Assembly (NCBI GenBank): GCA_026396515.1
Contig: JAPLWQ010000003.1
Location: 26,204 to 90,203 of the forward strand
Reading direction: 5' to 3'
Length of the DNA: 64,000 bases
DNA from: Candidatus Magasanikiibacteriota bacterium
GTDB taxonomy: Bacteria > Patescibacteriota > Patescibacteriia > Magasanikbacterales > GWA2-37-8
The position numbers and the translations under genes were made by a program. Positions 18,559-37,477 of this stretch are shown here, in pieces (the first letter of the stretch is position 1; each line of letters starts with the position of its first letter). Below the pieces are notes generated by a model. It ran no database searches. It was given only the letters and a program-made list of their open reading frames with translations, and was not told the origin of the DNA.

Positions 18559-18594
18559 TACACAGGGGGTTAAAGAAAGCAGGGGTTCTTGTTT

Positions 18595-18605
18595 TGTGGT
18601 ATAAT
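18595..18605 (+). promoter_or_regulatory. Extended -10 promoter (TGgTATAAT) for the giant surface-protein gene
   Basis: tgtggtataat located 45 nt upstream of the ATG at 18651. Confidence 0.45.
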
Positions 18606-18650
18606 ACCGTTGATGAAAAACTCATCAAATTTATTGTATTATTATATTAT

Positions 18651-21600
18651 ATGAAGCAAAAATTAAAGCTTCTGGTTTTGGCGTTTTCAGTTGTGGGTTT
18701 TATAGTGGCGGGCATTTTTTCTTCAATTGATAGAACTCGCGCGGCGGGTTATGGCCCGGGAAATTTGATCATAAATGAGTTCACTGCTTCCGGCACAACG
18801 TGGATTGAACTTATGAATACCACGGCCAGCGATATTGATTTGAGTGCTTCAACTTGGGAATTTGTCTTCTCACCGCATGGTGCCCCGGGTCCAAGTACCA
18901 CTACTTTATCCGGTCTAGTGCCGGCCAACGGTATGCTTACAATTTCAGCCTCATTACTTGGTGGTCCGGTCCTAACAGATTTATTAATATATTGGAATGG
19001 TTCAAACATTTATCATGTAAGCTACGGTCCGGGGGGCGATGTGGCGGCGCCTAGCGTCGGGGAATCAGCTATCTTGATAAGCACTTCAACATGGAGTACG
19101 ACTTCATCCATCAGCAAGGGCTGGTTCAATGAAACAACCAGTACTTTAAATTGTAGTACTCCGCCTGCACCAGGCCCGGGCGTTACTCCACCCTCTCTTG
19201 ATGCCATTGTTTCTTGTTTGCCGAGCGGCGTAACGACCAACATGAACAACACCGGTTCCATTTCCGATCCGACCCGAGCGAGTAATCTTTGGTTTGAAAA
19301 AACGGGAAGCGGAAAAATTAATTATAGTTCGGCCTTGAATTTAACTGACCAGAATACCCGGACTCTGCTTCAAAATCTCGGGACCAAAATGGAGCTTGAA
19401 GATGGCAGAGTTCGTCTTGACGCGAGTACAGCTTTGATAATGAAAAACGCCGGAGCGACGCTGTATTTTTATGGTTTGAACGATCTCGGCTATAACAATA
19501 TCGGCACCGGTTCCATCCTGGTTAAAGATGACGCGGGCGCGGTTATCCCGACTTCTTCAGTTGATTATCCTGATATGACAGGCGCTTCTTGGAGTAGTAC
19601 CAATTCCGGTACGCTGCAATTTGATGCTGAACATTTTTCCGAATATGATGTGAATCCGGTTATCACGGAAATTACGCCGGTCGCGAGCCCGTCATATACG
19701 GCCACACCAACCTATGTTTTTTCGGCCAATGTTACTGGCACGGTGATTTATGGCGGCGACTGCGTTATGGCCGCGGCTTCCACGACCAACGGTAACAATT
19801 CCGTGGTTTTTGGTCCGCTTTCCGATGGCACTCACAGTAATTGCACGGTGAAAGTAATTGACGGCGCCGGCGCATCCACCACCTTGGCGGTTACTTCATT
19901 TGCGACCATTACAAACCCTCCATCAACACCCGTCGGTCTTTCCGCGGCTCCTGTATCCGCGAGCGAGATTGATCTGACTTGGACTGCAACTACCGGCACA
20001 AATTATTATAATATTTATAGAGGTACGGTAAGCACCTCTCTCTCGGTTGTGGCTTCCACCACCAACAACTATAAGAATAACACCGGTTTGGCCAATAATA
20101 CTTTATTCTACTACAAGGTTTCCGCTGTTAATGGTATCGGCGAGGGAGCTTCGTCTTCGCTGGTTAGTACAACTACCTTGCCTTTGGCAGCCCCCAACGT
20201 CCCGATCGGACTTTCTGCAGTGGGAACTTCCACTAGTATGGTTCAAGTGAGTTGGACCGCCTCCACGGATACACCGGATTATTATAATGTTTATCACGGC
20301 ACTGATGGAGTTGCTTACAGTTTTGTGGCAAGTACCACCGATCCAATTTATTATCACGACAGTTTGGGCGTCAACACCATTCATTATTATAAAGTGTCGG
20401 CCGTCAATAATGCCGGCGAAACTACCTCCACGGCCGACAATGCTTATACCTTTGCCGCTGTTCCATCCGGCTTAACAACCACTGCCTCAACAACGGTTGC
20501 TACTACCTTGCAATGGAGCGCGAATGGCAATCCGGCAGGCACGGTTTATCAGATTTCCGGCACTGGTTTTGCCACAGCCACAACTACGGCCACGTCGACC
20601 GCGATTTCAAGTTTGAACCCCGATACCAGTTATACATTTGATCTGCTCGCAAAAAATGGCGACAATATACTAACTGCGGCAGTGAGCGCATCGGATTGGA
20701 CAAAAGCCGTAAACCCATCTTCGTTCGTTTCCACCGCTTCCTCCACAGTCTCCATTTCCCTGAGCTGGAGCGGAGGCTTGAATCCCGGTACAACCATATA
20801 TCAGCTGTTTGGCATTGGGTTCGCGACGACATCCGTAACAGCGACTTCTGATATTGTTTCCGGATTAAATCCGAACGCTCACTATACTTTTAATGTGCGG
20901 TCGCAAAATCATGATGGTACATATAATGCGCCGCAGAGTGTTTCAGATGACACCACGGTCGCTGTCCCGGGTACACCTACCGCAACCCCAACTTCTTCCA
21001 CGCAAATTATTTTATCTTGGGACCCGAGCAGTAACCCCGGCACCACCGTTTATCAGGTCTACAATGTTACGACCGCGGCTGTAAGCGGTACGACCACTGC
21101 GACGTCATTGACCGTGGGAGGTTTAACCACAAATACCGCGTATGAATTTAAGGTACGCGCTCAGAATTTGAACGATGGGAGTTGGTCCGCCTATTCGGGT
21201 ATCAGCACGGCTGCCACGACTTTTGCTCTGCCAACCGTGACTTCGGGAGATGTATCTTCTGTCGCCTCCACAACAGCAACTTTTAACGGAAACATTACAT
21301 TCATCGGCGGCACAAACGCAACCGAGCGCGGCTTTACATATGGCACGACCACCGGTTATGGGACGACCAGTACTGCGAGCGGCTCATTCGGCACCGGCGC
21401 GTTCACTGCTCCGATATCCGCTCTCTCGGCCGGGACGAATTATCACTATAAGGCCTATACGAAAAATAGTGTTGGCACAAGTTTCGGATCCGATATATTG
21501 TTTACGACCGTGTTCGCCCCCACTGCCGGCAATCCCACCACCACAATCGGCGTGAGTAATACCGCTACTAACACAATTATCGCAGGAACTGATGTGGTTA

Positions 21601-23162
21601 ATCCTGTTATTAATATGTCAAGCGTTACAACAGGAGGCGCGGGTACGGTGCCGGGAGAAATTGATGCCACTGTAGGTACTAGCATTGGTGATATAATAGT
21701 GACTATACCGGACGGCACCACAATATCCGGCGCGTCATGGAACGGGGTTATTCACTTGCCGACCATCAAATCTAACAGCAGCGTATCGGTAACCGCCGAT
21801 TCAGGATATACGGCAACAGTAGATAGTGTGATAGAGATCGGCTTTGACAACACTGCTTTGACATTTGATAGGGGCGTTAGGATATTAATTCCGGGCAAAG
21901 CAAGTAAATATGCCGGATACTACCGCAATTCAACCTTTACGAAGATTACCGCGACTTGTTCGGCCGACAATCAGGCGGCTGGTGATGCTTTACTGGCTGG
22001 CACTGATTGCAGAACCACTTCAGGTAGTGACCTGGTGATCTGGACGAAACACTTTACCAGCTTCCTAACTTATACCCAGCAAGTCCAGCAGAGCGGTGGT
22101 TCTTCCGGCGGTGGTATTAACAACAACAATCAAACGGCACCGACGAACGCGTCCGTCGTAATTAATAGCGGGTCGGCTTCCACAGCATCGGCCAATGTGA
22201 CGTTGGCGCTCTCAGCAAGCGATGCAACTCAAATGGCAATATCTAATACCTCGGACTTTAACGGAATAAGCTGGGAAGATTATGCGGCCAGCAAATCATG
22301 GGTTCTGCCAGCCGGCGCCGGGTTAAAGACAATATATGTAAAGTTCCGCAATGCCGATGGTAATATATCCAATATTGTGTCCGATTCAATAGACCTTACA
22401 GTATCGGCCGGTGGCGCCACCCCTGAAGAAGCGGCGACCGGTGAAATCGGTGTTGCAGAGAGTCCTGATTCCGCGGTGGCCATTAGTAATATCGTTGCGG
22501 CGGAATATCAGCCCGGAAACAGCGTCGGCTTCAGCTATGAATATAAAAATGAGACGGAAAAAACTTTATACGTAAAAATAATGCGTGAACTGGTGAACAG
22601 CAAAGGAAAGGTGATTAAGAAACTGACGGCCTACAGAACGATTAAAGCAGGTTCCGTATTTAAGGCGGATATTAAAGAACTGTTAAGCTCCAACTTGGCA
22701 TCTGGCTTGTACACAATGCGGGTCAAGATATATAACTCGCGCACCAACAAGTTGCTGGCACAGAACAGTTTCAAGATAATGGTTAAAAACAAAAATTTTG
22801 TTTTTTCCTCTCTGCCTGAAGCTAATGCTATTGCTTTTAATACCTCCACGTTTAATAAGATGAAAAAGGTGGTATTATTGCCCGCCACGGTTACCCTGCG
22901 TTATAGCTACACAAATTTAACCGAGACCAAGCAGACCATAAAAATGGTGCGGGAGTTGATTGACCCAAGCGGAAAAACGCTGGCAATGCGGACGGGCAAG
23001 TGGGTGATGGTGCCGGGAGAAAAAGACAGCGTTTCCCTGGTTCAGAGTTTAGCAAAGAAATTGTCCGTCGGAGATTACAAGCTCCGCGTAAGAGCGCTTG
23101 ACTATAAGACCGGAGAAATATTGGCCGAGAACGCCGTTGACTTCAAGATTGAGCTGAGATAA
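18651..23162 (+). CDS. Giant (1503 aa) cell-surface protein: signal/anchor helix, lamin-tail domain, about 8 fibronectin type III repeats, two C-terminal ~100-aa repeats
   Basis: MKQKLKLLVLAFSVVGFIVAG. LIINEF...IELMN...IDLS LTD signature. Repeated PxxPxGLxAxxxSxSxIxLxWxA...YxVY units. Internally similar C-terminal repeats (YVKIMRELVNSKGK.. / IKMVRELIDPSGK..). Confidence 0.75.
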   Translation: MKQKLKLLVLAFSVVGFIVAGIFSSIDRTRAAGYGPGNLIINEFTASGTTWIELMNTTASDIDLSASTWEFVFSPHGAPGPSTTTLSGLVPANGMLTISASLLGGPVLTDLLIYWNGSNIYHVSYGPGGDVAAPSVGESAILISTSTWSTTSSISKGWFNETTSTLNCSTPPAPGPGVTPPSLDAIVSCLPSGVTTNMNNTGSISDPTRASNLWFEKTGSGKINYSSALNLTDQNTRTLLQNLGTKMELEDGRVRLDASTALIMKNAGATLYFYGLNDLGYNNIGTGSILVKDDAGAVIPTSSVDYPDMTGASWSSTNSGTLQFDAEHFSEYDVNPVITEITPVASPSYTATPTYVFSANVTGTVIYGGDCVMAAASTTNGNNSVVFGPLSDGTHSNCTVKVIDGAGASTTLAVTSFATITNPPSTPVGLSAAPVSASEIDLTWTATTGTNYYNIYRGTVSTSLSVVASTTNNYKNNTGLANNTLFYYKVSAVNGIGEGASSSLVSTTTLPLAAPNVPIGLSAVGTSTSMVQVSWTASTDTPDYYNVYHGTDGVAYSFVASTTDPIYYHDSLGVNTIHYYKVSAVNNAGETTSTADNAYTFAAVPSGLTTTASTTVATTLQWSANGNPAGTVYQISGTGFATATTTATSTAISSLNPDTSYTFDLLAKNGDNILTAAVSASDWTKAVNPSSFVSTASSTVSISLSWSGGLNPGTTIYQLFGIGFATTSVTATSDIVSGLNPNAHYTFNVRSQNHDGTYNAPQSVSDDTTVAVPGTPTATPTSSTQIILSWDPSSNPGTTVYQVYNVTTAAVSGTTTATSLTVGGLTTNTAYEFKVRAQNLNDGSWSAYSGISTAATTFALPTVTSGDVSSVASTTATFNGNITFIGGTNATERGFTYGTTTGYGTTSTASGSFGTGAFTAPISALSAGTNYHYKAYTKNSVGTSFGSDILFTTVFAPTAGNPTTTIGVSNTATNTIIAGTDVVNPVINMSSVTTGGAGTVPGEIDATVGTSIGDIIVTIPDGTTISGASWNGVIHLPTIKSNSSVSVTADSGYTATVDSVIEIGFDNTALTFDRGVRILIPGKASKYAGYYRNSTFTKITATCSADNQAAGDALLAGTDCRTTSGSDLVIWTKHFTSFLTYTQQVQQSGGSSGGGINNNNQTAPTNASVVINSGSASTASANVTLALSASDATQMAISNTSDFNGISWEDYAASKSWVLPAGAGLKTIYVKFRNADGNISNIVSDSIDLTVSAGGATPEEAATGEIGVAESPDSAVAISNIVAAEYQPGNSVGFSYEYKNETEKTLYVKIMRELVNSKGKVIKKLTAYRTIKAGSVFKADIKELLSSNLASGLYTMRVKIYNSRTNKLLAQNSFKIMVKNKNFVFSSLPEANAIAFNTSTFNKMKKVVLLPATVTLRYSYTNLTETKQTIKMVRELIDPSGKTLAMRTGKWVMVPGEKDSVSLVQSLAKKLSVGDYKLRVRALDYKTGEILAENAVDFKIELR

Positions 23163-24509: not shown

Positions 24510-25508
24510 ATGAATTTAGCAATAAATGGGTTCGGACGCATCGGCAGACAGGCCTTTAAAATTGCCTGCGAACACAAGGGGATTGATGTTGTTGCCATTA
24601 ATGACTTAACCGACCCGAAGACGCTGGCGCATTTATTGAAACATGACACTTCTTACCGTACATGGGACCATGATGTTTCGTTTGATGAGAAAAATATTAT
24701 TGTAGACGGCAAAAAAGTTCCGGTTTCGGCGGAAAAAGATCCGGCCGCGTTGCCGTGGAAAAAATTGTCGGTTGATGTGGTTTTGGAATGCACCGGCCGG
24801 TTTACAAAAAAAGAAGACGCTGAACTTCATATTAAAGCCGGTGCGCGCAAAGTCGTGCTTTCGGCTCCGGGCAAGGGCGGCGATATTCCAACCTATGTAC
24901 GCGGTGTGAACTGTGCTAAGGTCGGCAAGGAAACTGCCGAGATTATCAACAACGCTTCCTGTACCACCAACTGCATTGCGCCGGTGATGGCCGTGCTTGA
25001 AGAAACGTTTGGTATCAAAAAAGCAATGATGACCACCGTACACGGTTATACTGCTGACCAGAATCTGCAGGACGGCCCGCATAAGGATTTGCGCCGGGCA
25101 CGCGCGGCTGCGGAAAATATCGTGCCAACTACCACGGGCGCGGCTAAAGCCGTGGGTGAGGTGATTCCGGCTGTAAAAGGAATTTTTGATGGCTTGGCTA
25201 TCCGCGTACCGGTCCTAACTTGTTCGCTCGCAGATATTACAGCTGTGCTCAATAAGAAAGTAACAAAAGAAGAAGTGAATCAGGCGTTGATTGATGCGTC
25301 CAAAACCGCGCGATTTGAAAATGTTTTGCTTACCACCGAAGAAGAACTTGTTTCCTCTGATTTTGTCGCCAATCCATATTCTTCCATCGTTGATTTGAAA
25401 CTGACCAACGTGGTCGGTGATGATTTGGTTAAAGTGATCGCCTGGTACGACAATGAAATGGGTTACTCATACCGCTTGGTGGAAATTGCCGAGATGTTTG
25501 GAAAATAA
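24510..25508 (+). CDS. gap: Glyceraldehyde-3-phosphate dehydrogenase
   Basis: INGFGRIGR NAD motif; active-site ASCTTNC. Confidence 0.95.
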   Translation: MNLAINGFGRIGRQAFKIACEHKGIDVVAINDLTDPKTLAHLLKHDTSYRTWDHDVSFDEKNIIVDGKKVPVSAEKDPAALPWKKLSVDVVLECTGRFTKKEDAELHIKAGARKVVLSAPGKGGDIPTYVRGVNCAKVGKETAEIINNASCTTNCIAPVMAVLEETFGIKKAMMTTVHGYTADQNLQDGPHKDLRRARAAAENIVPTTTGAAKAVGEVIPAVKGIFDGLAIRVPVLTCSLADITAVLNKKVTKEEVNQALIDASKTARFENVLLTTEEELVSSDFVANPYSSIVDLKLTNVVGDDLVKVIAWYDNEMGYSYRLVEIAEMFGK

Positions 25509-29657: not shown

Positions 29658-29677
29658 ATATGCAGGCAGTTGTTTTT

Positions 29678-29688
29678 TGTGCTATAAT
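29678..29688 (+). promoter_or_regulatory. Extended -10 promoter (TGtGcTATAAT); pgk ATG only 6 nt downstream, so the mRNA is probably leaderless
   Basis: tgtgctataataatggtATG. Confidence 0.4.
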
Positions 29689-29694
29689 AATGGT

Positions 29695-30900
29695 ATGAAA
29701 ATAAGCACTTTGGCCGAAAAAAAGAACCTGAAAGGCAGGCGCGTATTGGTTCGTGTTGATTTTAATGTACCGCTCAAAAACGGAAAAATAAAAGAAGCGT
29801 ATAAAATTGAAAAAAGTTTGTCGACTGTAGAATTCTTGTGCAAAGCCGGAGCGAAAATTATTTTAATAAGCCATTTAGGACGGCCAACAGGAGTAGACAA
29901 AAAATTAAGCCTGAAACCTGTCGCTGTGGCGCTCGGAAAAATGCTGGAAAAAAAAATAGATTTTTTTGCGGTCAGCGATAAAATTTTAGGCGATAAAAAA
30001 CAACTGGAAAATTTGCAGAAAAAAATCATGGCGCTGAAAAATGGTGATGTTGCGCTTCTGGAAAATATCAGATTTATAAAAGGTGAAGAAAAAAATGACC
30101 CAAAGATTGCCCGCGCCCTCTCTTCTCTCGGCGAGCTGTTTGTCCTGGATGGATTTGCCGTGGCGCATCGCGATGCCGCTTCTGTATCGGGAGTGGCTAA
30201 ATATTTACCTGCTTGCGCCGGATTGTTATTGGAAGAAGAAATAAAAGGTCTGGCTAAGCTCATTGAAAGGCCGAAAAAGCCTTTTGTTGTGGTGCTGGGC
30301 GGTGCAAAAATGGAAACTAAGGTTCCTTTGATAAAGAAATTTATCCCTAAAGCATCGCAGATTTTAATCGGCGGCGGAATATTTAACACCTGTCTCTGGG
30401 CTAAAGGCGTAAAAGTTGGACGCTCGATTGTTGATAAAAATTATAAAAAAATTGCCCTGTCTTTCTGGAAAAATAAAAAAATTATAATGCCCGTGGATTT
30501 GGTGGTTGGAGGTGAGCAAGGCGAGCAGGCAAAGGTTGTCGCTTTAGATTCAAAATTTAAGATTCAAAATTTAAAAAACGGCATCTACGATATAGGCCCA
30601 AAAACCGTGTCGCTTTTTGCAAAATACATCAAGAAAGCCAATACACTGGTGTGGAATGGATCCATGGGAATGTTTGAAGTGCCGCCCTACCATTGGGGCA
30701 GCAACGCGGTAGCGCGCCTGTTTGCCAGCCGGGCAAGGGGAAAGGCATTCGGCGTTACCGGCGGCGGGGAAACCGTGGAAGTGGTGAAAAAATTAAAATT
30801 AATGAATGATATTGATCTGGTTTCCACCGGCGGGGGCGCAATGCTTGAATATTTATCGGGAAATAAACTGCCCGGAATAATGGTGGTATTAAAAAAATAA
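29695..30900 (+). CDS. pgk: Phosphoglycerate kinase
   Basis: RVDFNVPL, ISHLGRP and GGGA motifs. Confidence 0.95.
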   Translation: MKISTLAEKKNLKGRRVLVRVDFNVPLKNGKIKEAYKIEKSLSTVEFLCKAGAKIILISHLGRPTGVDKKLSLKPVAVALGKMLEKKIDFFAVSDKILGDKKQLENLQKKIMALKNGDVALLENIRFIKGEEKNDPKIARALSSLGELFVLDGFAVAHRDAASVSGVAKYLPACAGLLLEEEIKGLAKLIERPKKPFVVVLGGAKMETKVPLIKKFIPKASQILIGGGIFNTCLWAKGVKVGRSIVDKNYKKIALSFWKNKKIIMPVDLVVGGEQGEQAKVVALDSKFKIQNLKNGIYDIGPKTVSLFAKYIKKANTLVWNGSMGMFEVPPYHWGSNAVARLFASRARGKAFGVTGGGETVEVVKKLKLMNDIDLVSTGGGAMLEYLSGNKLPGIMVVLKK

Positions 30901-30960: not shown

Positions 30961-31821
30961 ATGCCCATAACAAGCGGCATTAGACGGGATCTGCCGCCGA
31001 AAAACGGCCATGGTTCCTGCGGTTGTGCGTCATCTTGCGCGTCGTGCGGTTGCCACAGTACTTTCGGCAAGAAAATGCTATTTACCCTGCTTGGGGTATT
31101 AATGGTATATGGTATTTTTTATTTTGGCACACTTATCAATAACAACCTGAAGAAGAATCAATTTATTGGCAGGATGGATAAAAGCGAAAGAATGGTCACA
31201 GTGAACGGTTTGGGGAAAGTAACCGGCAACAATAACATTGCTGTCACAACCATCGGTTATTCCAACACCGATAAAGAAGTGTCAAAAGCGCAATTAGATA
31301 ACAAGAAAATAATGGATCAGGTGATGGCCGATTTGAAGAAGCTCGGTATTGAAGATAAAGATCTGCAGACAGATTACACTATTTATCCGGACTATAATTA
31401 TACCCAAGAGCGTGGTCAGGAGCTCAAGGGGTATCGCGTAAATAATTCCGTTACGGTTAAAATTCGCGATTTGTCAAAAATTAATGATATTCTAGGATTG
31501 GCCGGAAAATATGGCGCCACCGAAGTCGGCGGTTTGAGTTTTACCATCGACGATCCGAGCAACCTTAAAGATCAGGCTCGAGGCAAGGCCTTGGATGACG
31601 CCAAGAAAAAAGCCGCAGAATTGGCGGCATCACTCGGCGTAAGATTGGGTGGAGTGGTCAGCTACAATGAATATGACGCTTCAAACGACACATACTATCC
31701 GAAATATAATACGATCAGCGCCGAAGGCGGAGGAATGGGCAGCGGTGCGCCGGAAGCGGTTTCCGGAGGCAGTAAAGATGTCCTTATGAACGTTAATATC
31801 ACCTACGAAATATTGCCGTAA
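30961..31821 (+). CDS. SIMPL/DUF541-domain membrane-anchored protein with a Cys-rich N-terminal tail
   Basis: GGGAGG RBS 7 nt upstream. N-terminus GSCGCASSCASCGCHS, then a TM helix, then a SIMPL-like domain. Confidence 0.5.
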   Translation: MPITSGIRRDLPPKNGHGSCGCASSCASCGCHSTFGKKMLFTLLGVLMVYGIFYFGTLINNNLKKNQFIGRMDKSERMVTVNGLGKVTGNNNIAVTTIGYSNTDKEVSKAQLDNKKIMDQVMADLKKLGIEDKDLQTDYTIYPDYNYTQERGQELKGYRVNNSVTVKIRDLSKINDILGLAGKYGATEVGGLSFTIDDPSNLKDQARGKALDDAKKKAAELAASLGVRLGGVVSYNEYDASNDTYYPKYNTISAEGGGMGSGAPEAVSGGSKDVLMNVNITYEILP

Positions 31822-31838
31822 ATTATCTGAAAATGTTA

Positions 31839-31870
31839 AAAGAGTCCGCCGTTGGCGGGCTCTTTTTTTA
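31839..31870 (+). terminator. Rho-independent terminator after the SIMPL gene
   Basis: agagtccgcc-gttg-ggcgggctct followed by ttttttt. Confidence 0.75.
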
Positions 31871-31882
31871 TTCTGTTCCGCG

Positions 31883-31891
31883 TGCTATAAT
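31883..31891 (+). promoter_or_regulatory. Extended -10 promoter (TGcTATAAT) for eno
   Basis: cgtgctataat 38 nt upstream of the ATG. Confidence 0.45.
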
Positions 31892-31929: not shown

Positions 31930-33177
31930 ATGAAAATCAAAAAAATTCAAGCCAGAGAGATCCTTGATTCGCGTGGTAATCCCACGGTGGAAACACGCGT
32001 TTCGCTTGCGAGTGGCATGGTAGTGTCGGCAAAAGTTCCCTCCGGCGCTTCTACCGGAGCGCACGAGGCCTGGGAATTGCGCGATGGCGGCAAGCGGTAT
32101 GGAGGAAAAGGCGTGCTGAAGGCGGTGAAAAATGTAAATACAATAATTGCCAAAGCGATAGTTGGAATGGATGTGCGCGATTTAGAAAAAATTGACCAGA
32201 AAATGATTGCTTTGGACGGTACGAAAAATAAGTCAAAGCTTGGTGCTAATGCTATTTTATCGGTTTCTCTCGCCGTGGCCAGAGCCGGCGCTGTTGCCGC
32301 GCGAATTCCACTATATCGCCATCTGCGAAAAGCATATGGCATAAAGGAAAAAGGCTGGCGTTTGCCTATTCCGACTATGAACGTGTTAAACGGCGGAGCG
32401 CACGCGGACAGCGGCCTTTCAATTCAGGAATTCATGATTATTCCAGCCCACAGGCTGCTTCGCGAGAGAGTGAGGATGGGTGCTGAAATATTTCATGCTT
32501 TGGCCGGCCTTCTTAGGAAAAAAGGATACACTACCGCTGTGGGTGATGAGGGCGGTTTCGCCCCCCGTTTGCCGGGAAATGAAGCGGCGCTAAAAATGCT
32601 AATGCAGGCAATTGAACTTGCCGGATATAAAGCCGGTGAAAATATATTTCTCGGCCTTGATGTAGCCGCGTCGGAATTTTTTTCCGATGGCAAGTATTTT
32701 TTTGAAAAAGAAAAGGGCGGCCGGACTTCGGAAAAAATGATTGCCACTTTTGAAAGTTGGATAAAAAAATATCCGTTGGTACTGGTTGAAGACGGGCTTA
32801 GCGAAAATGATTGGGTGGGTTGGAAAGATATGACTGTACGGTTGGGCAAAAAGACAATTTTAGTGGGCGATGATATTTTTGTCACCAATCCCGAAATATT
32901 CTCCCGTGGCATAAAGGAAAAAGTCGGCAATGCCATTCTTATTAAAGTAAATCAGATCGGCACGGTCAGTGAAACCATGAAGGCGATTAAATTAGCCAAG
33001 GCGAACGGTTATAAAACTGTAATATCGCACCGCAGCGGAGAAACCGGCGATACATTTATTGCCGATTTGGCCGTAGCGGTCAACTCCGATTATATTAAAA
33101 CCGGTTCGCTGTCGCGTTCTGAAAGAGTGGAAAAATATAATCGTTTGATGGAAATTGAAATGGAGCTGGGCATCTAA
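31930..33177 (+). CDS. eno: Enolase
   Basis: [16 protein letters not shown]; [12 protein letters not shown]. Confidence 0.95.
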
Positions 33178-33179
33178 AT

Positions 33180-34739
33180 ATGAAAACAAAACCAACAGTA
33201 CTCGCGATCATGGATGGTTGGGGAATAGCGCCGATAGAAAACAAAGGTAATCCGATTACGCCAAAAAATGCGCCTAATTTTTTTTCTTGGCTGAAAAAAT
33301 ACCCGAATACTGAAATTGCCGCCAGCGGAGAATCAGTTGGGCTTTTTAAGGGCGAAGATGGCAATAGTGAAGCCGGACATATGAATTTGGGAGCCGGCCG
33401 GGTGGTACAACAAGACGCCATATATATATCTGATGCGATTGAAGATGGTACATTTTTTAAAAATCCCGCCTTTCATCAGGCCTTGCATCATTTGCACAAA
33501 TATAAGACAGCCGCCCATGTGATGGGTCTGCTATCCAATCATAACAGCGCTCATTCCTGTCCGGAGCATCTTTACGCGCTTTTGGATTTTTTACGGAGTG
33601 AGGGCGTAAAAAAGATATTCTTGCATTTGTTTACCGATGGCCGCGATTCCGGCCAGCACGACGCGCCTAAACATCTAAAAAAATTGCGCGAGCACATGAA
33701 AAATGGCGAAAAGATAGCCACTATTACCGGCCGATTTTACGCCATGGATCGCGGGAAAAACTGGGATCGCCTAAAAGGAGCTTATGAAGCAATTGTTATG
33801 GGTCGAGGTGTGCGTTGTACCGCGCACAGCGCTGAGGAAGCGATTGCCCAGGCATACAATAGCGGTGAAACGGACGAGTACATTTGCCCCACTGTGATCA
33901 TGGATGACGGTCATCCGGTTACTTCAATAAAAGATAATGATGTAATTTTTTTCTTTAATCTGCGCAGTGACCGCGCGCGTGAACTGACTAAAGCGTTTGT
34001 TCAGCCGGATTTTGAGCAAATAAATGACGGCGCTTTCCATCGTGCGTTTGTGCCGAAAAATACGCGCTTTGTTGCTATGACTGATTTTGGACCGGACCTG
34101 CCGCATGTCTTAACCGCCTATCCCAGCCGGGATGTGGTTAACAGTTTGCCGCGGGTTTTGTGTCCCCACCAACAGCTATACATCGCTGAAACAGAAAAAT
34201 TCGCCCATGTGACATATTTTTTCAACGGAGGTTATGGCCGGCATTTTTGCGACGAACGCTGGATAAAAATCGCTTCGGTTGAAGTGAAAAATTATAAAGA
34301 TCGTCCGGAAATGAGCGCTAAATTAATTACTGATGTTTTAACAAAGGCAATTGAAAAAGACGGATATGAATTTGTCTGTGTTAATTTCGCCAATCCGGAC
34401 ATGGTGGCGCATAGCGGCGATATGGAAGCAACCGCTAAAGCAATTCGCACGGTTGATACCGAGATGGCGCGTCTGATAAAAGTTGTGGAAAGACTCGACG
34501 GACAAATGATAATTACTGCTGACCACGGTAATGCCGAAGAGCTGGTTAATCTGAAAACCGGCGAAGTTGATACAGAGCATTCCACCAATCCGGTTCCGTT
34601 TATTGTTGTGGGAAAAAAATATTCAAAAAGTAAATTAAAACTGCGTAAAAACGGCAAGCTCGGCGATGTGGCGCCCACGATCCTAAAAATGATGGATATT
34701 CCAAAACCAAAGGAGATGACAGGTAAAAGTATATTTTAA
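33180..34739 (+). CDS. gpmI: 2,3-bisphosphoglycerate-independent phosphoglycerate mutase, paralog 1
   Basis: ILDGWG, GNSEAGHMNLGAGR, DGRD and ADHGNAEE motifs. Confidence 0.85.
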   Translation: MKTKPTVLAIMDGWGIAPIENKGNPITPKNAPNFFSWLKKYPNTEIAASGESVGLFKGEDGNSEAGHMNLGAGRVVQQDAIYISDAIEDGTFFKNPAFHQALHHLHKYKTAAHVMGLLSNHNSAHSCPEHLYALLDFLRSEGVKKIFLHLFTDGRDSGQHDAPKHLKKLREHMKNGEKIATITGRFYAMDRGKNWDRLKGAYEAIVMGRGVRCTAHSAEEAIAQAYNSGETDEYICPTVIMDDGHPVTSIKDNDVIFFFNLRSDRARELTKAFVQPDFEQINDGAFHRAFVPKNTRFVAMTDFGPDLPHVLTAYPSRDVVNSLPRVLCPHQQLYIAETEKFAHVTYFFNGGYGRHFCDERWIKIASVEVKNYKDRPEMSAKLITDVLTKAIEKDGYEFVCVNFANPDMVAHSGDMEATAKAIRTVDTEMARLIKVVERLDGQMIITADHGNAEELVNLKTGEVDTEHSTNPVPFIVVGKKYSKSKLKLRKNGKLGDVAPTILKMMDIPKPKEMTGKSIF

Positions 34740-34741
34740 TT

Positions 34742-36334
34742 ATGCCTCACAAACATAAACCGGTTGTCTTAATCATCCTCGACGGCTGGGGAATTGCTCC
34801 GGACGGAGAAGGCAACGCCATCGCAAAAGCCAAAACACCCAATCTGGATGATTACAAAAAAAATTATCCGGTGACGACTATTACCGCGAGCGGTACCGAG
34901 GTTGGGTTGTCATTTGGCGAAGTGGGCAATTCCGAAGTCGGCCATTTAAATATTGGCGCCGGCAGGGTGTATTATCAAACACTGCCGCGTATTGACCAGG
35001 AAATATTAAATGGAAATTTTTTTGGCAATCAGGCATTTTTATCGGCTTTTGAACACGTGAAAAAAAACAAGTCAAATCTTCATCTGATGGGGCTCGTTTC
35101 CGCCGGAAAAGTGCATTCCAGCGATGAGCACCTCCATCGGCTGCTTGAGATGGCAAAGAAAAACGGCTGTTCAAAAAATGTTTATGTTCACGCCTTTCTT
35201 GACGGCAGAGATACTTTGTATAATTCAGGCAAATATTTTATCGGGCAGTTAATAAATAAAATGCAGGAGTTAAAAACCGGCAAGCTGGCGACACTGGCCG
35301 GCCGCTATTGGGCGATGGACAGAGATAACCATTGGGACAGGATTGAAAAAGTTTTTCGGGCATTAACAGTAGGCGAAGCCGATCGGATGGCACCCGACCC
35401 GTTGCAGGCGATAGATGGCGCATACGCCAACAAAAACTATGACGAAGAATTTTTACCAACGGTTATTACCGATAAAAACGGAAAGCCCACAATTACCATT
35501 AAAGATAACGACGCCGTGATATTTTTTAATTTTCGTCCGGACCGGGCGCGTGAGATGACCAAAGCGTTCGTTTTGCCGGAGTTTGATAAGTTTCCTCATC
35601 AGGCGCTTAATAATCTGTATTTTGCGACCATGGGTGAGTATGAAAAAGATTTGCCGGTATCGGCTGTGGCTTTTCCGCCGGTTGTAATTATTAATGGTTT
35701 AGCCGAAACCGTCAGCCGGGCCGGTCTGCAACAATTTCATATTGCCGAAACTGAAAAATATGCCCACATTACATTTTTTATAAATGGCACCAGAGAGGAT
35801 CCGTTTCCCGGAGAAGACAGAAAAATTATTCCTTCGCCAAAGGTATCTTCATATGATCAGCAGCCGGAGATGTCGGCTGTTCCGGTGGCAAAAGAAACGG
35901 TCAAGGCCGTGGAAAGCGGAAAGTATGATTTTATTGCCGTAAACTTCGCCAACGCAGATATGGTCGGCCACACCGGCTTGCTTGAGCCCACAATTACGGC
36001 CTGTGAAACAATTGATGAGTGTGTCGGCAGCATCGTTGACCATGTTTTGGCCCATGAGGGCGCGGTTGTCATTACGGCCGATCACGGTAATGCCGAAGAG
36101 GTCGTAAATTTGCAGACAGGGGATATAGACAAAGAACATTCAACAAATCCCGTGCCGCTGTATATTGTCAGCCGGGATTTAATGGGGCAGGCCGGCCCGA
36201 GCGGAGACCCGCCCGAGGGGGACTTGAGTTTATTGCAGCCGGTGGGTATGCTTTCCGATGTTGCTCCGACAATTTTAAAATTAATGGGTTTGGAACAACC
36301 GCCGGAGATGACCGGCTCCAGTTTAATTCAATAG
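34742..36334 (+). CDS. gpmI: 2,3-bisphosphoglycerate-independent phosphoglycerate mutase, paralog 2
   Basis: ILDGWG, GNSEVGHLNIGAGR, DGRD and ADHGNAEE motifs. Divergent from the upstream paralog. Confidence 0.85.
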   Translation: MPHKHKPVVLIILDGWGIAPDGEGNAIAKAKTPNLDDYKKNYPVTTITASGTEVGLSFGEVGNSEVGHLNIGAGRVYYQTLPRIDQEILNGNFFGNQAFLSAFEHVKKNKSNLHLMGLVSAGKVHSSDEHLHRLLEMAKKNGCSKNVYVHAFLDGRDTLYNSGKYFIGQLINKMQELKTGKLATLAGRYWAMDRDNHWDRIEKVFRALTVGEADRMAPDPLQAIDGAYANKNYDEEFLPTVITDKNGKPTITIKDNDAVIFFNFRPDRAREMTKAFVLPEFDKFPHQALNNLYFATMGEYEKDLPVSAVAFPPVVIINGLAETVSRAGLQQFHIAETEKYAHITFFINGTREDPFPGEDRKIIPSPKVSSYDQQPEMSAVPVAKETVKAVESGKYDFIAVNFANADMVGHTGLLEPTITACETIDECVGSIVDHVLAHEGAVVITADHGNAEEVVNLQTGDIDKEHSTNPVPLYIVSRDLMGQAGPSGDPPEGDLSLLQPVGMLSDVAPTILKLMGLEQPPEMTGSSLIQ

Positions 36335-37477
36335 CGCGGCGGTTTCAGACGTCCGCTGTTTTATTTCTGCGATTACCGTTTCCTCGGCCGCCTTAAGAGA
36401 AGATCCGTTTATTTCGATTTCCGCATTGCGTTTGTTTCCGCGCGGAGAAAAAGTTTTCAGTATTTCCATCGCGTCAAAATGTTTTTCCACGGTCAGCCGG
36501 CCGTGGATTTTGTTTTCCTCATTTTCGTCTTCAAACAACACTAAAATTAATGAAGCCTCGGGCGAATTGCCGATTAATTCATTTATCAACTCCTGAATGT
36601 CGTTCATTCCGGCGCCGGAGCGTTTGAAATCATCTCTGGTGAGGAGCGTCCATGCCAGGGCGATACTGCGTTCTGTCTGAAGTCCGGTAAGGGCCTGTCC
36701 CCACAGTTTTAATGTAGCGATGGATTTTGTCCGGTAAAGATGCTTGATAATTTTTTCGCGGTCAGCGCCCAGGTTCATCAGCTGTCCGGCGAGATTAAGC
36801 GTTGCCGGCGTCACATTCGGAGTTTTAAAGCTTCTGGTCCCGGCAATCATGCCGGTGAGTATTGCCGTGGCAGTCGCTTCATTTGTAGAAAATCCTAATT
36901 GTTCAAAAGTGTGATAGACAATTTCCGATGTTGAAGTGGCGGTTAATTCCACTAAATTCAAACTGCCAAAATGTTCGTTTGCCGCTTTGTGGTCAATATT
37001 GACAATTGGTGTGCGGTAAAACAGATCCGTATTATTGAAGAATACGTCGCCCAGTGAATCCAGGTCGGTGGCGCCCAGCACGAAAATTAAATCGTATTTA
37101 AACGTGGTTTGTAAGGTCCTTAAATCGTTTTTTGTGATTGCGCCACTTAGCGGAGTCAGATGTATGGAAAGCCAGTTGTCCTTAATGTCATAGCTCAATG
37201 TCTCAATTTTTGCTTTGGAGACATCAACTTTGATGGTGAATTTATGCAAATGAAATAATTCCGGTTTAATATTGTCCACGCCTTCGAGAAATGAAAGATG
37301 GCCGGACGCGCTAAAACCGCCACAAACTACGTCAGCCTGTTTGCGCCGGGTGGAAAGATATCTTTTGAGTGCCAGTGCGGCAGCCACTGCGTCGTCGTTT
37401 TTTCCCTCCGGTAAAGCGATTAACGGGTGTCCACTCTGGTCAATCAGTTTATTCAATTGTGCCTTGGTGTCAAACAT
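36323..37477 (-). CDS. DHH/DHHA1-family phosphoesterase (NrnA-like nanoRNase / pAp phosphatase)
   Basis: NDDAV (motif I), NIDHK (DHH-like) and GGFSASGH (GGGH-like). Overlaps the end of gpmI-2 by 12 nt. Confidence 0.6.
   Translation of the reverse strand: MFDTKAQLNKLIDQSGHPLIALPEGKNDDAVAAALALKRYLSTRRKQADVVCGGFSASGHLSFLEGVDNIKPELFHLHKFTIKVDVSKAKIETLSYDIKDNWLSIHLTPLSGAITKNDLRTLQTTFKYDLIFVLGATDLDSLGDVFFNNTDLFYRTPIVNIDHKAANEHFGSLNLVELTATSTSEIVYHTFEQLGFSTNEATATAILTGMIAGTRSFKTPNVTPATLNLAGQLMNLGADREKIIKHLYRTKSIATLKLWGQALTGLQTERSIALAWTLLTRDDFKRSGAGMNDIQELINELIGNSPEASLILVLFEDENEENKIHGRLTVEKHFDAMEILKTFSPRGNKRNAEIEINGSSLKAAEETVIAEIKQRTSETAALLN

What the first reader, a model, noticed from the sequence alone, without database searches (positions are those of the whole stretch)
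33180..36334. Two divergent cofactor-independent phosphoglycerate mutase paralogs in tandem
Seen in sequence:
- Adjacent genes are separated by 2 nt and each encodes a full-length iPGM.
- The catalytic Ser (GNSE[AV]GH) and the metal-binding motifs are retained in both: DGWG, DGRD, ADHGN and the His pair.
- They are only moderately similar, so this is an old duplication or an acquisition, not a recent copy.

Inference: unusual for a streamlined genome. One copy may have shifted specificity, for example to another phosphosugar mutase activity or a moonlighting role.
Basis: seen in the sequence. Interest (0 to 1): 0.5.

Follow-up and report, generated by a model that had tools for sequence, protein, structure and literature searches.

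The report
Conserved tandem iPGM pair in CPR bacteria
A tiny-genome Magasanikbacteria (CPR) bacterium carries two intact, anciently diverged copies of the glycolytic enzyme phosphoglycerate mutase next to enolase, a pairing shared by many related lineages, which suggests the copies are not redundant although both look like ordinary mutases.

Summary
Two full-length cofactor-independent phosphoglycerate mutase (iPGM) genes lie 2 nt apart (33180-34739 and 34742-36334), directly after enolase. They are 44% identical. Both exceed the iPGM equivalog cutoff, and both keep all 16 catalytic, metal and substrate residues of the Geobacillus enzyme.

This is not a local oddity. The enolase-copy 1-copy 2 order recurs in at least 30 other Parcubacteria-group genomes. 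Cross-paralog identity there stays at 39-46%, and the two copies co-diverge (Mantel r = 0.84). Both have dN/dS of about 0.04, the same as enolase.

- **Copy 1** belongs to a CPR-specific subfamily (100% bootstrap) with a GNSEAGH motif, a reshaped loop before His123 and a basic charge.
- **Copy 2** is orthodox and acidic, with a 13-17 aa acidic insertion.

A shift in substrate is not supported: the first-shell residues are invariant, and diagnostic changes are not enriched near the active site.

In one sub-lineage copy 2 has become a conserved pseudoenzyme beside an intact copy 1. That hints at a partnership between the two proteins.

The best reading is two active, sub-functionalised iPGMs co-expressed with enolase. 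Each gene is a new subfamily member of a known enzyme kind. Interest is moderate.

The parts
31838..31866 (+). Terminator-like hairpin (13 pairs plus a T-run) after the SIMPL/DUF541 gene. It is the likely upstream boundary of the eno-iPGM-iPGM transcription unit.
   Evidence: No comparable site lies between eno, copy 1 and copy 2.
31886..31891 (+). TATAAT hexamer 39 nt upstream of the enolase start codon. It is a possible -10 element of the operon promoter (inferred).
   Evidence: Sequence printed. It was not called by the two-hexamer scan because there is no -35 match.
31930..33177 (+). Enolase (415 aa), first gene of the inferred operon. It uses the 2-phosphoglycerate that iPGM makes.
   Evidence: Enolase_N and Enolase_C. 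It sits directly upstream of the pair in 25 of 28 related tandem loci.
33180..34739 (+). iPGM copy 1 (519 aa). It belongs to a CPR-specific, more diverged, basic subfamily. The catalytic Ser63 codon is at 33366-33368.
33360..33380 (+). GNSEAGH motif of copy 1. The V64A change (1EJJ numbering) two residues after the catalytic Ser is 97% conserved in the copy 1 clade, while Val is 100% conserved in copy 2 and in single-copy iPGMs.
33534..33557 (+). SNHNSAHS loop of copy 1. This is the reshaped loop, with a 1-aa insertion, that precedes the substrate-binding His (His125, equivalent to 1EJJ His123). Canonical iPGMs have SDG-GVHS here.
34614..34658 (+). Lys-rich loop KKYSKSKLKLRKNGK of copy 1 (1EJJ positions about 474-483). 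This is the site of the largest local charge contrast with copy 2.
34742..36334 (+). iPGM copy 2 (530 aa). It is the orthodox, acidic paralog and is closer to non-CPR bacterial iPGMs. The catalytic Ser64 codon is at 34931-34933.
36173..36247 (+). Copy 2-specific acidic insertion region, RDLMGQAGPSGDPPEGDLSLLQPVG (clade consensus ..gdLsl..PvG). It is absent from copy 1 and from single-copy iPGMs, and it is retained even in the degenerate copy 2 of L013 and L083.
36486..36507 (+). Terminator-like hairpin (9 pairs plus a T-run) about 150 nt past the copy 2 stop codon, inside the convergent gene. It is a possible end of the operon transcript (inferred).

Best explanation
The locus is a three-gene lower-glycolysis operon, eno-gpmI(copy 1)-gpmI(copy 2). 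Both mutase genes encode catalytically competent cofactor-independent phosphoglycerate mutases. These interconvert 3-phosphoglycerate and 2-phosphoglycerate by the standard mechanism of this family: two metal ions and a phosphoserine intermediate, in a two-domain enzyme. They feed enolase, which is encoded just upstream.

The pair is not a recent or local duplication. It is an ancient paralog pair that was fixed before the Magasanikbacteria, Falkowbacteria, Paceibacter and other Parcubacteria-group lineages diverged, and it has been inherited vertically as a unit since then.

- **Copy 2** is the orthodox enzyme: acidic and closer to other bacterial iPGMs.
- **Copy 1** is a CPR-specific subfamily: basic, with the GNSEAGH motif, a reshaped loop before His123, and FTDGRD/RSDR variants.

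Long-term retention of both under strong purifying selection in roughly 1-Mb genomes implies that they are not redundant. The most likely reason is sub-functionalisation of the same reaction, for example different metal, pH or ionic optima, or different partners, rather than a new substrate.

**Shown:** gene structure, intact active sites, conservation, selection, co-inheritance and the charge split.
**Inferred:** co-transcription, catalytic activity, and the nature of the sub-functionalisation.
For: - **Family membership and intact sites.** Both copies pass TIGR01307 (535.6 and 612 bits against a cutoff of 330.65). Both have the iPGM domain architecture and align over their full length to 1EJJ. 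All 16 catalytic, metal and substrate residues are invariant in 29/29 copy 1-type, 29/29 copy 2-type and 5/5 lone copy 1-type proteins.
- **Selection.** dN/dS against the closest relative (L003) is 0.043 for copy 1 and 0.042 for copy 2, compared with 0.038 for enolase.
- **Conserved arrangement.** The tandem order c1->c2 occurs in 28 GTDB species genomes, with eno directly upstream in 25. Two further genomes show it, and 37 exact contig lengths are shared between the two top-120 homolog lists.
- **Coupling.** The intergenic gap is -8 to +14 nt in 17 of 28 loci. A strong terminator-like hairpin lies before eno and none lies within the triad.
- **Vertical co-inheritance.** Cross-paralog identity is 39-46% in every genome, and Mantel r = 0.84 with 0 of 2000 permutations reaching it.
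- **Coherent subfamily.** The copy 1 clade has 100/100 bootstrap support. All 240 close homologs sort cleanly with clade HMMs, and 119 of 120 copy 1 hits carry GNSEAGH plus R[ST]DR.
- **Charge split.** Copy 1 has median net charge +4, copy 2 has -16 and single-copy iPGMs have -22.5. Copy 1 is the more positive in 27 of 29 genomes, p = 8e-6.
- **Copy 1 is kept intact on its own.** In L013 and L083 copy 1 is the only intact iPGM of the pair. If those genomes have no other PGM, this implies copy 1 is a working mutase.
Against: - No biochemical data exist for either subfamily, so activity is inferred from sequence.
- Independent isozymes would not need strict adjacency. Tight coupling, opposite charges, a partial Mantel r(c1,c2|eno) of 0.64, and retention of a dead copy 2 next to copy 1 in one lineage fit a physical partnership at least as well.
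- Copy 1 has systematic second-shell changes flanking substrate-binding residues. These could alter specificity or kinetics even though they are not statistically enriched there.
- A few genomes have a copy 1-type gene without an adjacent copy 2 (L022, L028). The rest of those genomes could not be searched.
Confidence: 0.55

Rival explanations
1. The two paralogs work as a physical pair, either a heteromeric iPGM or a catalytic subunit with a regulatory or scaffold partner, rather than as independent monomeric isozymes.
For: - Gene order and adjacency are strictly conserved across deep divergence, often with overlapping or 2-3 nt junctions.
- The net charges are opposite. The strongest contrast is at one shared loop, Lys-rich in copy 1 and carrying an acidic insertion in copy 2.
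- Copy 1 and copy 2 distances stay correlated after controlling for enolase: partial r = 0.64, 0 of 2000 permutations reach it. In contrast, r(c1,eno|c2) = 0.03.
- In L013 and L083/L084, copy 2 has lost 13-14 of the 16 functional residues. It is still an intact 499-aa ORF, aligns almost without gaps at 50% identity between genomes, has dN/dS of about 0.40, keeps the copy 2-specific insertion, and lies 1 nt after an intact copy 1.
Against: - Characterised iPGMs are described as active monomers (PMC2964296; PMC5382265).
- Both copies in the window keep complete active sites, which a pure scaffold would not need.
- L019 and L021 have a 169-aa ORF inserted between the copies, and L022 and L028 lack an adjacent copy 2.
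- Mirror-tree correlations between paralogs can come from shared constraints alone.
Confidence: 0.25
2. Copy 1 has been neofunctionalised. It keeps the iPGM scaffold but acts on a different phosphorylated substrate, or as a phosphatase or transferase.
For: - The copy 1 clade has conserved changes flanking functional residues: V64A beside the catalytic Ser, a reshaped loop with one extra residue before His123, L150T before DGRD, F260L and P262S between Arg261 and Arg264, F342Y, and loss of Glu349 and Asp192.
- It retains fewer of the columns that are near-invariant in single-copy iPGMs: 79 of 118, against 90 of 118 for copy 2.
- It has a long stem branch in the tree.
Against: - Every residue that binds phosphate, carboxylate or metal in 1EJJ is invariant in all 34 copy 1-type proteins.
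- Diagnostic switches are not enriched within 3 residues of those positions (4 of 16 switched against 52 of 232 unswitched, p = 0.51).
- RSDR also occurs in many ordinary iPGMs.
- Copy 1 scores 535.6 bits on the iPGM equivalog model, but only 47 bits on phosphopentomutase (cutoff 254) and 43 bits on apgM (cutoff 320).
- In L013 and L083 copy 1 is the only intact mutase of the pair.
Confidence: 0.1
3. On origin: the pair arose by lateral acquisition of one copy into the eno-gpmI operon of an early Parcubacteria-group ancestor, not by in situ tandem duplication.
For: - The copy 1 and copy 2 clades never group as sisters in the NJ bootstraps (0 of 100).
- Each clade scores higher against the generic bacterial iPGM HMM than against the other clade's HMM.
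- Copy 2 keeps the acidic charge typical of non-CPR iPGMs, while enolase (pI about 9.3) and copy 1 are basic like the host's proteins.
- Foster et al. attributed two of the four known bacterial iPGM duplicates to lateral transfer.
Against: - Deep nodes are unresolved. Copy 2 monophyly has only 50% support and the root is unknown. Long-branch effects on the fast-evolving copy 1 could by themselves break up a true sister relationship.
- Same-strand tandem placement is what in situ duplication produces.
- The two copies have co-diverged across the whole clade.
Confidence: 0.3
4. The pair is an artefact (assembly duplication or chimeric bin), or one copy is a decaying pseudogene.
For: None found. 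This was considered because the source is a metagenome-assembled genome.
Against: - Identical loci occur in two independent assemblies.
- The copies are only 44% identical.
- Both are full-length with intact sites.
- Both have dN/dS of about 0.04.
- The same arrangement occurs in at least 30 other genomes.
Confidence: 0.01

Closest known systems
Bacterial cofactor-independent phosphoglycerate mutase (GpmI/GpmM; TIGR01307; structures 1EJJ, 1EQJ and 1O98 from Geobacillus stearothermophilus)
   Same: - The split Metalloenzyme plus iPGM_N architecture is the same, and the length is about 510-530 aa.
- Alignment to the solved structure is full length.
- The catalytic Ser, both metal sites and all substrate-binding Arg, His and Lys residues are identical in both copies.
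- Linkage with enolase, PGK and GAPDH fits a glycolytic role.
   Different: - Two deeply diverged paralogs are kept side by side.
- Copy 1 is basic and has GNSEAGH, a reshaped loop before His123 and RSDR.
- Copy 2 carries a 13-17 aa acidic insertion near the C-terminus, plus Q58E and T460K.
- Characterised iPGMs are single-gene monomers.
Known cases of two bacterial-type iPGM genes in one genome (Foster et al. 2010: Acidithiobacillus ferrooxidans, Sorangium cellulosum, Desulfotomaculum reducens, Pseudomonas putida F1)
   Same: There is more than one bacterial-type iPGM gene per genome.
   Different: - Those cases are sporadic: 4 of 702 genomes. One is a pseudogene, one is a recent duplicate with 90% similarity, and two are attributed to lateral transfer.
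- They occur in larger genomes.
- Here the pair is clade-wide, tandem, ancient (about 44% identity) and found in genomes of about 1 Mb.
GpmI/GpmA isozyme pair of Staphylococcus aureus (Mn-dependent iPGM plus metal-independent dPGM; Radin et al. 2019, PMC6684088, abstract seen)
   Same: Two enzymes for the same glycolytic step are retained, which that paper explains by different metal requirements. This is a model for sub-functionalisation of one reaction.
   Different: - Those two enzymes are non-homologous, whereas both enzymes here are iPGMs with identical metal ligands.
- Any difference in metal preference here is conjecture.
Active enzyme plus dead-paralog partner systems (pseudoenzyme 'prozyme' pairs such as trypanosomatid AdoMetDC/prozyme; recalled from general knowledge, not tested here)
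   Same: In L013 and L083 a catalytically dead copy 2 is conserved directly beside an intact copy 1.
   Different: - In the window both copies are catalytically intact.
- No interaction has been shown.
- No such system is known to me for iPGM.

Membership tests
Bacterial-type iPGM (GpmI, TIGR01307) | Two-domain architecture: an alkaline-phosphatase-like Metalloenzyme domain (PF01676) interrupted by the iPGM_N transferase domain (PF06415). | tested here: met
   Copy 1: PF06415 at E = 2.8e-67 and PF01676 at E = 1.3e-65, spanning residues 4-507. Copy 2: 2e-76 and 5e-76, spanning residues 6-518.
Bacterial-type iPGM (GpmI, TIGR01307) | Whole-protein score above the curated equivalog cutoff (330.65 bits). 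| tested here: met
   copy 1 scores 535.6 bits and copy 2 scores 612 bits. The stricter NF003897 model (cutoff 862) is not reached by either copy (456 and 546 bits).
Bacterial-type iPGM (GpmI, TIGR01307) | Catalytic Ser nucleophile and two metal sites (1EJJ Asp12/Ser62/Asp444/His445 and Asp403/His407/His462, which correspond to the C. elegans sites listed in PMC5382265). | tested here: met
   All seven residues are present in both window copies and invariant in 29/29 proteins of each clade.
Bacterial-type iPGM (GpmI, TIGR01307) | Phosphoglycerate-binding residues of the transferase domain and cleft (1EJJ His66, His123, Arg153, Asp154, Arg185, Arg191, Arg261, Arg264, Lys336). The residue list is from my recollection of the 1EJJ literature. 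Their identities were checked against the 1EJJ sequence. | tested here: met
   All nine are present in both copies and invariant in both clades.
Bacterial-type iPGM (GpmI, TIGR01307) | Catalyses 3PG<->2PG without 2,3-bisphosphoglycerate and depends on divalent metal. | not testable with these tools
   This needs an enzyme assay. Indirect support only: operon linkage with enolase and copy 1 being the sole intact copy in L013 and L083.
Bacterial-type iPGM (GpmI, TIGR01307) | Active as a monomer (PMC2964296, PMC5382265). | not testable with these tools
Phosphopentomutase (DeoB) and archaeal-type iPGM (ApgM): other mutases of the same superfamily, considered for copy 1 | Score above the family cutoff (DeoB NF009049: 254 bits; apgM TIGR00306: 320 bits). 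| tested here: not met
   Copy 1 scores 47.4 and 43 bits. These matches cover only the C-terminal metal-site region.
Pseudo-enzyme (catalytically dead iPGM paralog) | Loss of the catalytic Ser, metal ligands or substrate residues. | tested here: not met
   neither window copy has lost any of these residues. The criterion is met only by the copy 2-derived genes of L013 (P0391) and L083/L084 (P0392), which have lost 14 and 13 of the 16.

The most novel reading that the evidence does not exclude
The two paralogs are an obligate two-protein phosphoglycerate mutase. A basic, CPR-specific catalytic subunit (copy 1) would pair with an acidic partner (copy 2) through their oppositely charged C-terminal loops. 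The partner can lose catalysis altogether and persist as a pseudoenzyme, as in L013 and L083. This would be the first heteromeric or partner-dependent form of an enzyme family regarded as strictly monomeric, and it would sit in the core energy pathway of a large part of the Candidate Phyla Radiation.
Probability: 0.2. Interest if true: 0.6.

Novelty: new member of a known kind. Interest (0 to 1): 0.35.

Why it matters
CPR bacteria have some of the smallest genomes known and depend on lower glycolysis for ATP. A duplicated glycolytic enzyme that is kept in tandem under strong selection across Magasanikbacteria, Falkowbacteria, Paceibacter and related lineages goes against the published pattern that iPGM paralogs are rare and found in large genomes.

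The finding defines an uncharacterised, CPR-specific iPGM subfamily with simple sequence signatures: GNSEAGH, a one-residue-longer loop before His123, and a basic pI. This can improve annotation. PGM was reported as 'absent' in some Parcubacteria, possibly because the sequences were too divergent for the HMM threshold used (PMC7304191).

It also gives a clean test case for why minimal genomes keep paralogs. The possibilities are different metal, pH or ionic optima, or a partnership between the two proteins. The partnership idea is suggested by the charge split and by a lineage where one copy became a conserved pseudoenzyme. Both possibilities can be tested directly with recombinant proteins.

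Tried and rejected
- **Assembly artefact or recent duplicate.** Rejected: identical loci in two assemblies, and only 44% identity.
- **Pseudoenzyme in the window.** Rejected: 16 of 16 functional residues are intact in both copies.
- **Pocket remodelling in copy 1.** I listed the clade-diagnostic switches and tested whether they fall within 3 residues of functional positions. They are not enriched (p = 0.51 for copy 1, p = 0.84 for copy 2). This test uses primary-sequence proximity only, because no 3D coordinates were available.
- **Duplication versus lateral transfer.** NJ with 100 bootstraps on 110 sequences and on 251 sequences including 50%-identity representatives gave solid support for the copy 1 clade. 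The deep nodes were unresolved and the two clades were not sisters, so the question stays open. No ML tree software was available.
- **Gene fusions of the two copies (Rosetta-stone evidence).** None were seen among the 390 fetched proteins.
- **Literature.** I searched for CPR, Magasanikbacteria or Parcubacteria together with PGM paralogs. Nothing specific turned up. Two searches for papers listing 1EJJ active-site residues also found nothing useful, so that residue list rests on my own knowledge plus the C. elegans metal-site list.
- **Rfam.** The only hit in the window is a tRNA-Leu. There is no riboswitch or leader near the operon.


Full report
**1.

One search lists two same-strand ORFs, 33180..34739 (519 aa, copy 1) and 34742..36334 (530 aa, copy 2), separated by 2 nt. 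Copy 1 starts 2 nt after the stop codon of a 415-aa enolase gene (31930..33177). BLASTP between the copies gives 44% identity over their full length, E = 5e-141.

Both copies have the split Metalloenzyme (PF01676) plus iPGM_N (PF06415) architecture. Both exceed the NCBIfam equivalog cutoff for 2,3-bisphosphoglycerate-independent phosphoglycerate mutase, TIGR01307: 535.6 and 612 bits against a cutoff of 330.65. Both align end to end with the Geobacillus stearothermophilus enzyme 1EJJ, at 441.8 and 516.6 bits.

The exact copy 1 protein, followed by the 530-aa copy 2, is found on contigs from two separate sequencing runs. The locus is therefore not an assembly duplication.

The source names the organism as a Candidatus Magasanikbacteria MAG. 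In NCBI taxonomy this lies in the Parcubacteria group of the Patescibacteria/CPR.

**2. Both active sites are complete**

I rebuilt the 1EJJ sequence from the alignments and verified its numbering. I then aligned it with 110 iPGMs taken from the window and from related loci.

Sixteen positions were scored:
- the seven metal and nucleophile residues: Asp12, Ser62, Asp444 and His445; Asp403, His407 and His462. These are the same two sites described for the C. elegans enzyme in PMC5382265;
- nine substrate-contact residues: His66, His123, Arg153, Asp154, Arg185, Arg191, Arg261, Arg264 and Lys336.

All 16 are present in both window proteins. All are invariant in 29/29 copy 1-type, 29/29 copy 2-type and 5/5 lone copy 1-type sequences. 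Neither copy in the window is a pseudoenzyme.

**3. The pair is clade-wide, ancient and inherited as a unit**

A scan of one genome per GTDB species with copy 1 returned 80 loci. tblastn of those loci shows the following.
- The order copy 1-type then copy 2-type, on the same strand, occurs in 28 genomes. These are labelled Magasanikbacteria, Falkowbacteria, Paceibacter, Parcubacteria group or Patescibacteria group. Several are clearly mislabelled 'uncultured Gammaproteobacteria' bins.
- Enolase lies directly upstream in 25 of the 28.

Two more genomes picked from the copy 2 hit list, one with a 1.03-Mb contig, show the full window synteny: PGK-SIMPL-eno-iPGM-iPGM-(convergent DHH-like gene)-ValRS. 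Thirty-seven exact contig lengths recur in the top-120 homolog lists of both copies, which indicates many more co-resident pairs.

The gap between the two genes is -8 to +14 nt in 17 of 28 loci. L019 and L021 are exceptions, with a 169-aa ORF inserted between the copies.

Within each genome the two copies are 39-46% identical. No copy 1 is more than 47.5% identical to any copy 2. Pairwise distances of the two paralogs across genomes are strongly correlated (Mantel r = 0.84, 0 of 2000 permutations reach it). The event therefore predates the divergence of these lineages, there has been no gene conversion, and the two genes have been co-inherited.

Against the closest relative (L003), dN/dS is 0.043 for copy 1, 0.042 for copy 2 and 0.038 for enolase. 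dS for that pair is 1.5-1.8, which is high but not saturated.

**4. What distinguishes the two copies**

Single iPGMs of non-CPR bacteria are closer to copy 2 (46-51% identity) than to copy 1 (40-44%).

Copy 1-type sequences form a clade with 100/100 NJ bootstrap support and a long stem branch. Clade-specific HMMs sort all 240 close homologs without error. Of the 120 copy 1 hits, 119 carry GNSEAGH plus R[ST]DR. At the 50%-identity level the subfamily accounts for only about 13 of the 150 best representatives.

Conserved copy 1 features:
- V64A, which gives GNSEAGH;
- a loop before His123 that is reshaped and one residue longer (SDG-GVH becomes SNxxSAH);
- L150T, giving FTDGRD;
- F260L and P262S;
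- F342Y;
- loss of conservation at Asp192 and Glu349.

Copy 2 features:
- Q58E and T460K;
- a 13-17 aa acidic insertion after about position 478 of 1EJJ.

These switches are not enriched within three residues of the functional positions (Fisher p = 0.51 and 0.84). RSDR also occurs in ordinary iPGMs. I therefore see no sequence support for a new substrate.

The clearest global difference is charge.
- Median net charge is +4 for copy 1, -16 for copy 2 and -22.5 for single-copy iPGMs.
- Copy 1 is the more positive in 27 of 29 genomes (Wilcoxon p = 8e-6).
- Enolase from the same genomes is also basic (pI about 9.3). Copy 1 therefore follows the host trend, while copy 2 stays acidic.
- The largest local contrast (+3.6 against -3.0) is at the loop at 1EJJ 474-483. 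This is KKYSKSKLKLRKNGK in window copy 1, and the GDPPEGD-containing insertion in copy 2.

**5. A lineage in which copy 2 died but was kept**

In L013, a lone-looking copy 1-type gene is followed after 1 nt by a 499-aa ORF (P0391, annotated as hypothetical). This ORF matches only iPGM_N, and weakly (39 bits). It aligns over its full length to copy 2 at 21% identity and keeps the copy 2-specific insertion motif. It has lost 14 of the 16 functional residues.

Its only close relative, P0392 (50% identity, also 499 aa, aligned almost without gaps), sits in the same position after an intact copy 1-type gene in L083 and L084. P0392 has lost 13 of the 16.

The partner copy 1 proteins are 71% identical. 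dN/dS is about 0.40 for the dead copy and 0.17 for copy 1.

This shows that copy 1 is the copy kept catalytically intact in that lineage. It also shows that a non-catalytic copy 2 is still under constraint beside it. That hints that the two proteins do something together.

A partial Mantel test points the same way: r(c1,c2|eno) = 0.64, 0 of 2000 permutations reach it, against r(c1,eno|c2) = 0.03. This test is weak for paralogs, because they share constraints.

**6. Operon inference**

A 13-pair terminator-like hairpin at 31838-31866 follows the SIMPL gene. A TATAAT hexamer lies at 31886-31891. No terminator-like site separates eno, copy 1 and copy 2, and the next one on the + strand is at 36486-36507. 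Together with the 2-nt junctions, this fits one eno-gpmI-gpmI transcript. This is an inference.

GAPDH (24510-25508) and PGK (29677-30900) lie nearby. Rfam finds no regulatory RNA in the region.

**7. Mechanism and rival readings**

The best-supported reading is that both proteins are working iPGMs. They would use the family's mechanism of two metal ions and a phosphoserine intermediate (described in PMC2964296 and PMC5382265) to supply 2-phosphoglycerate to the co-encoded enolase. On this reading the pair persists because the copies have partitioned the job, with different physicochemical optima or partners, rather than gaining a new substrate. My confidence is about 0.55.

- **Main rival: a physical partnership or heteromer (about 0.25).** It is favoured by the tight coupling, the opposite charges at a shared loop and the conserved pseudo-copy 2. 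It is disfavoured by the monomeric nature of all characterised iPGMs and by the intact active site of copy 2 in the window.
- **Neofunctionalisation of copy 1 (about 0.1).**
- **Artefact (about 0.01).**
- **Origin.** Whether the pair arose by in situ duplication or by ancient lateral acquisition is unresolved. The two clades never appear as sisters in NJ bootstraps, but the deep nodes are poorly supported.

**8. Comparison with what is known**

Each gene passes every testable membership criterion for bacterial-type iPGM. Foster et al. 2010 found two bacterial-type iPGMs in only 4 of 702 genomes. One was a pseudogene, one a recent duplicate and two were lateral transfers, and PGM paralogs were concentrated in large genomes.

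The CPR metabolic survey by Jaffe et al. 2020 treats PGM only as present or absent. It notes apparent absences in some Parcubacteria that may reflect divergence beyond the HMM threshold. Four targeted searches found no paper describing this tandem pair.

The enzymes are therefore of a known kind. What is new is a conserved, CPR-specific second subfamily and its obligate-looking pairing with the orthodox copy.

**9. Verdict**

Novelty: a new member (subfamily) of a known kind. Interest: 0.35. It would rise to about 0.6 if the partnership reading proves true, which I put at a probability of about 0.2.

Noticed in passing
L013:7553-9052 (+) (P0391); L083:1659-3158 and L084:1219-2718 (P0392): This is a copy 2-derived pseudo-iPGM of 499 aa that has lost 13-14 of the 16 functional residues. 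It keeps the copy 2-specific insertion and sits 1 nt after an intact copy 1-type iPGM, with NrdD downstream. The two versions are 50% identical and align almost without gaps, with dN/dS of about 0.40. NCBI annotates it as a hypothetical protein.
   Followed up: yes
window 33180-36334 and the 29 paired genomes: There is a systematic charge split between the paralogs: copy 1 has a median pI of about 8.4 and copy 2 about 5.4. Enolase in the same genomes is also basic (pI about 9.3), whereas single-copy bacterial iPGMs are acidic (pI about 5.05). The reason is unexplained.
   Followed up: partly
window 36323-37477 (-): A convergent 384-aa gene overlaps the 3' end of copy 2 by 12 nt. It has only a sub-threshold DHH-family match (23.4 bits against a cutoff of 28.1). 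The same gene follows the iPGM pair in L001, L002, L085 and L086, so its position is conserved.
   Followed up: partly
window 30961-31821 (+): A SIMPL/DUF541 protein with a Cys-rich N-terminus is wedged between pgk and eno. The same pgk-SIMPL-eno order is seen in L001, L085 and L086.
   Followed up: no
window 60740-62827 (+): A 695-aa SecD-like protein has two PpiC-type rotamase (PPIase) domain matches (around residues 248-371) that lie between SecD P1 segments. This appears to be a SecD-PPIase fusion.
   Followed up: no
window 55780-57822 (+): A 680-aa protein combines CoA-binding, Succ_CoA_lig and ATP-grasp_5 domains, which is the architecture of an ADP-forming acetyl-CoA synthetase. This would fit fermentative ATP generation downstream of glycolysis.
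   Followed up: no
window 17-4447 (+) and 18594-23162 (+): There are two very large ORFs. The 1476-aa ORF has no Pfam match at E <= 0.001. The 1522-aa ORF has fibronectin type III domains and is probably a surface protein.
   Followed up: no
L019:7608-8117 (+); a similar spacer in L021: In two high-GC relatives a 169-aa ORF of unknown function is inserted between copy 1 and copy 2, giving a spacer of about 600 nt. Adjacency is therefore not absolute.
   Followed up: partly
L009-L012, L014, L015, L018-L021, L025, L028, L052 (record titles); P0064/P0166: Many MAG records that carry the CPR-type eno-iPGM-iPGM locus are titled 'uncultured Gammaproteobacteria bacterium', and one is titled 'Candidatus Udaeobacter sp.'. 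The gene order and the closest relatives indicate Patescibacteria, so these taxonomic labels look wrong.
   Followed up: no
L022:4712-5926 (+): Upstream of a lone copy 1-type iPGM is a 404-aa protein that combines a WecG/TagA glycosyltransferase domain with a NUDIX domain. PGK lies just before it, and there is no enolase in that locus.
   Followed up: no
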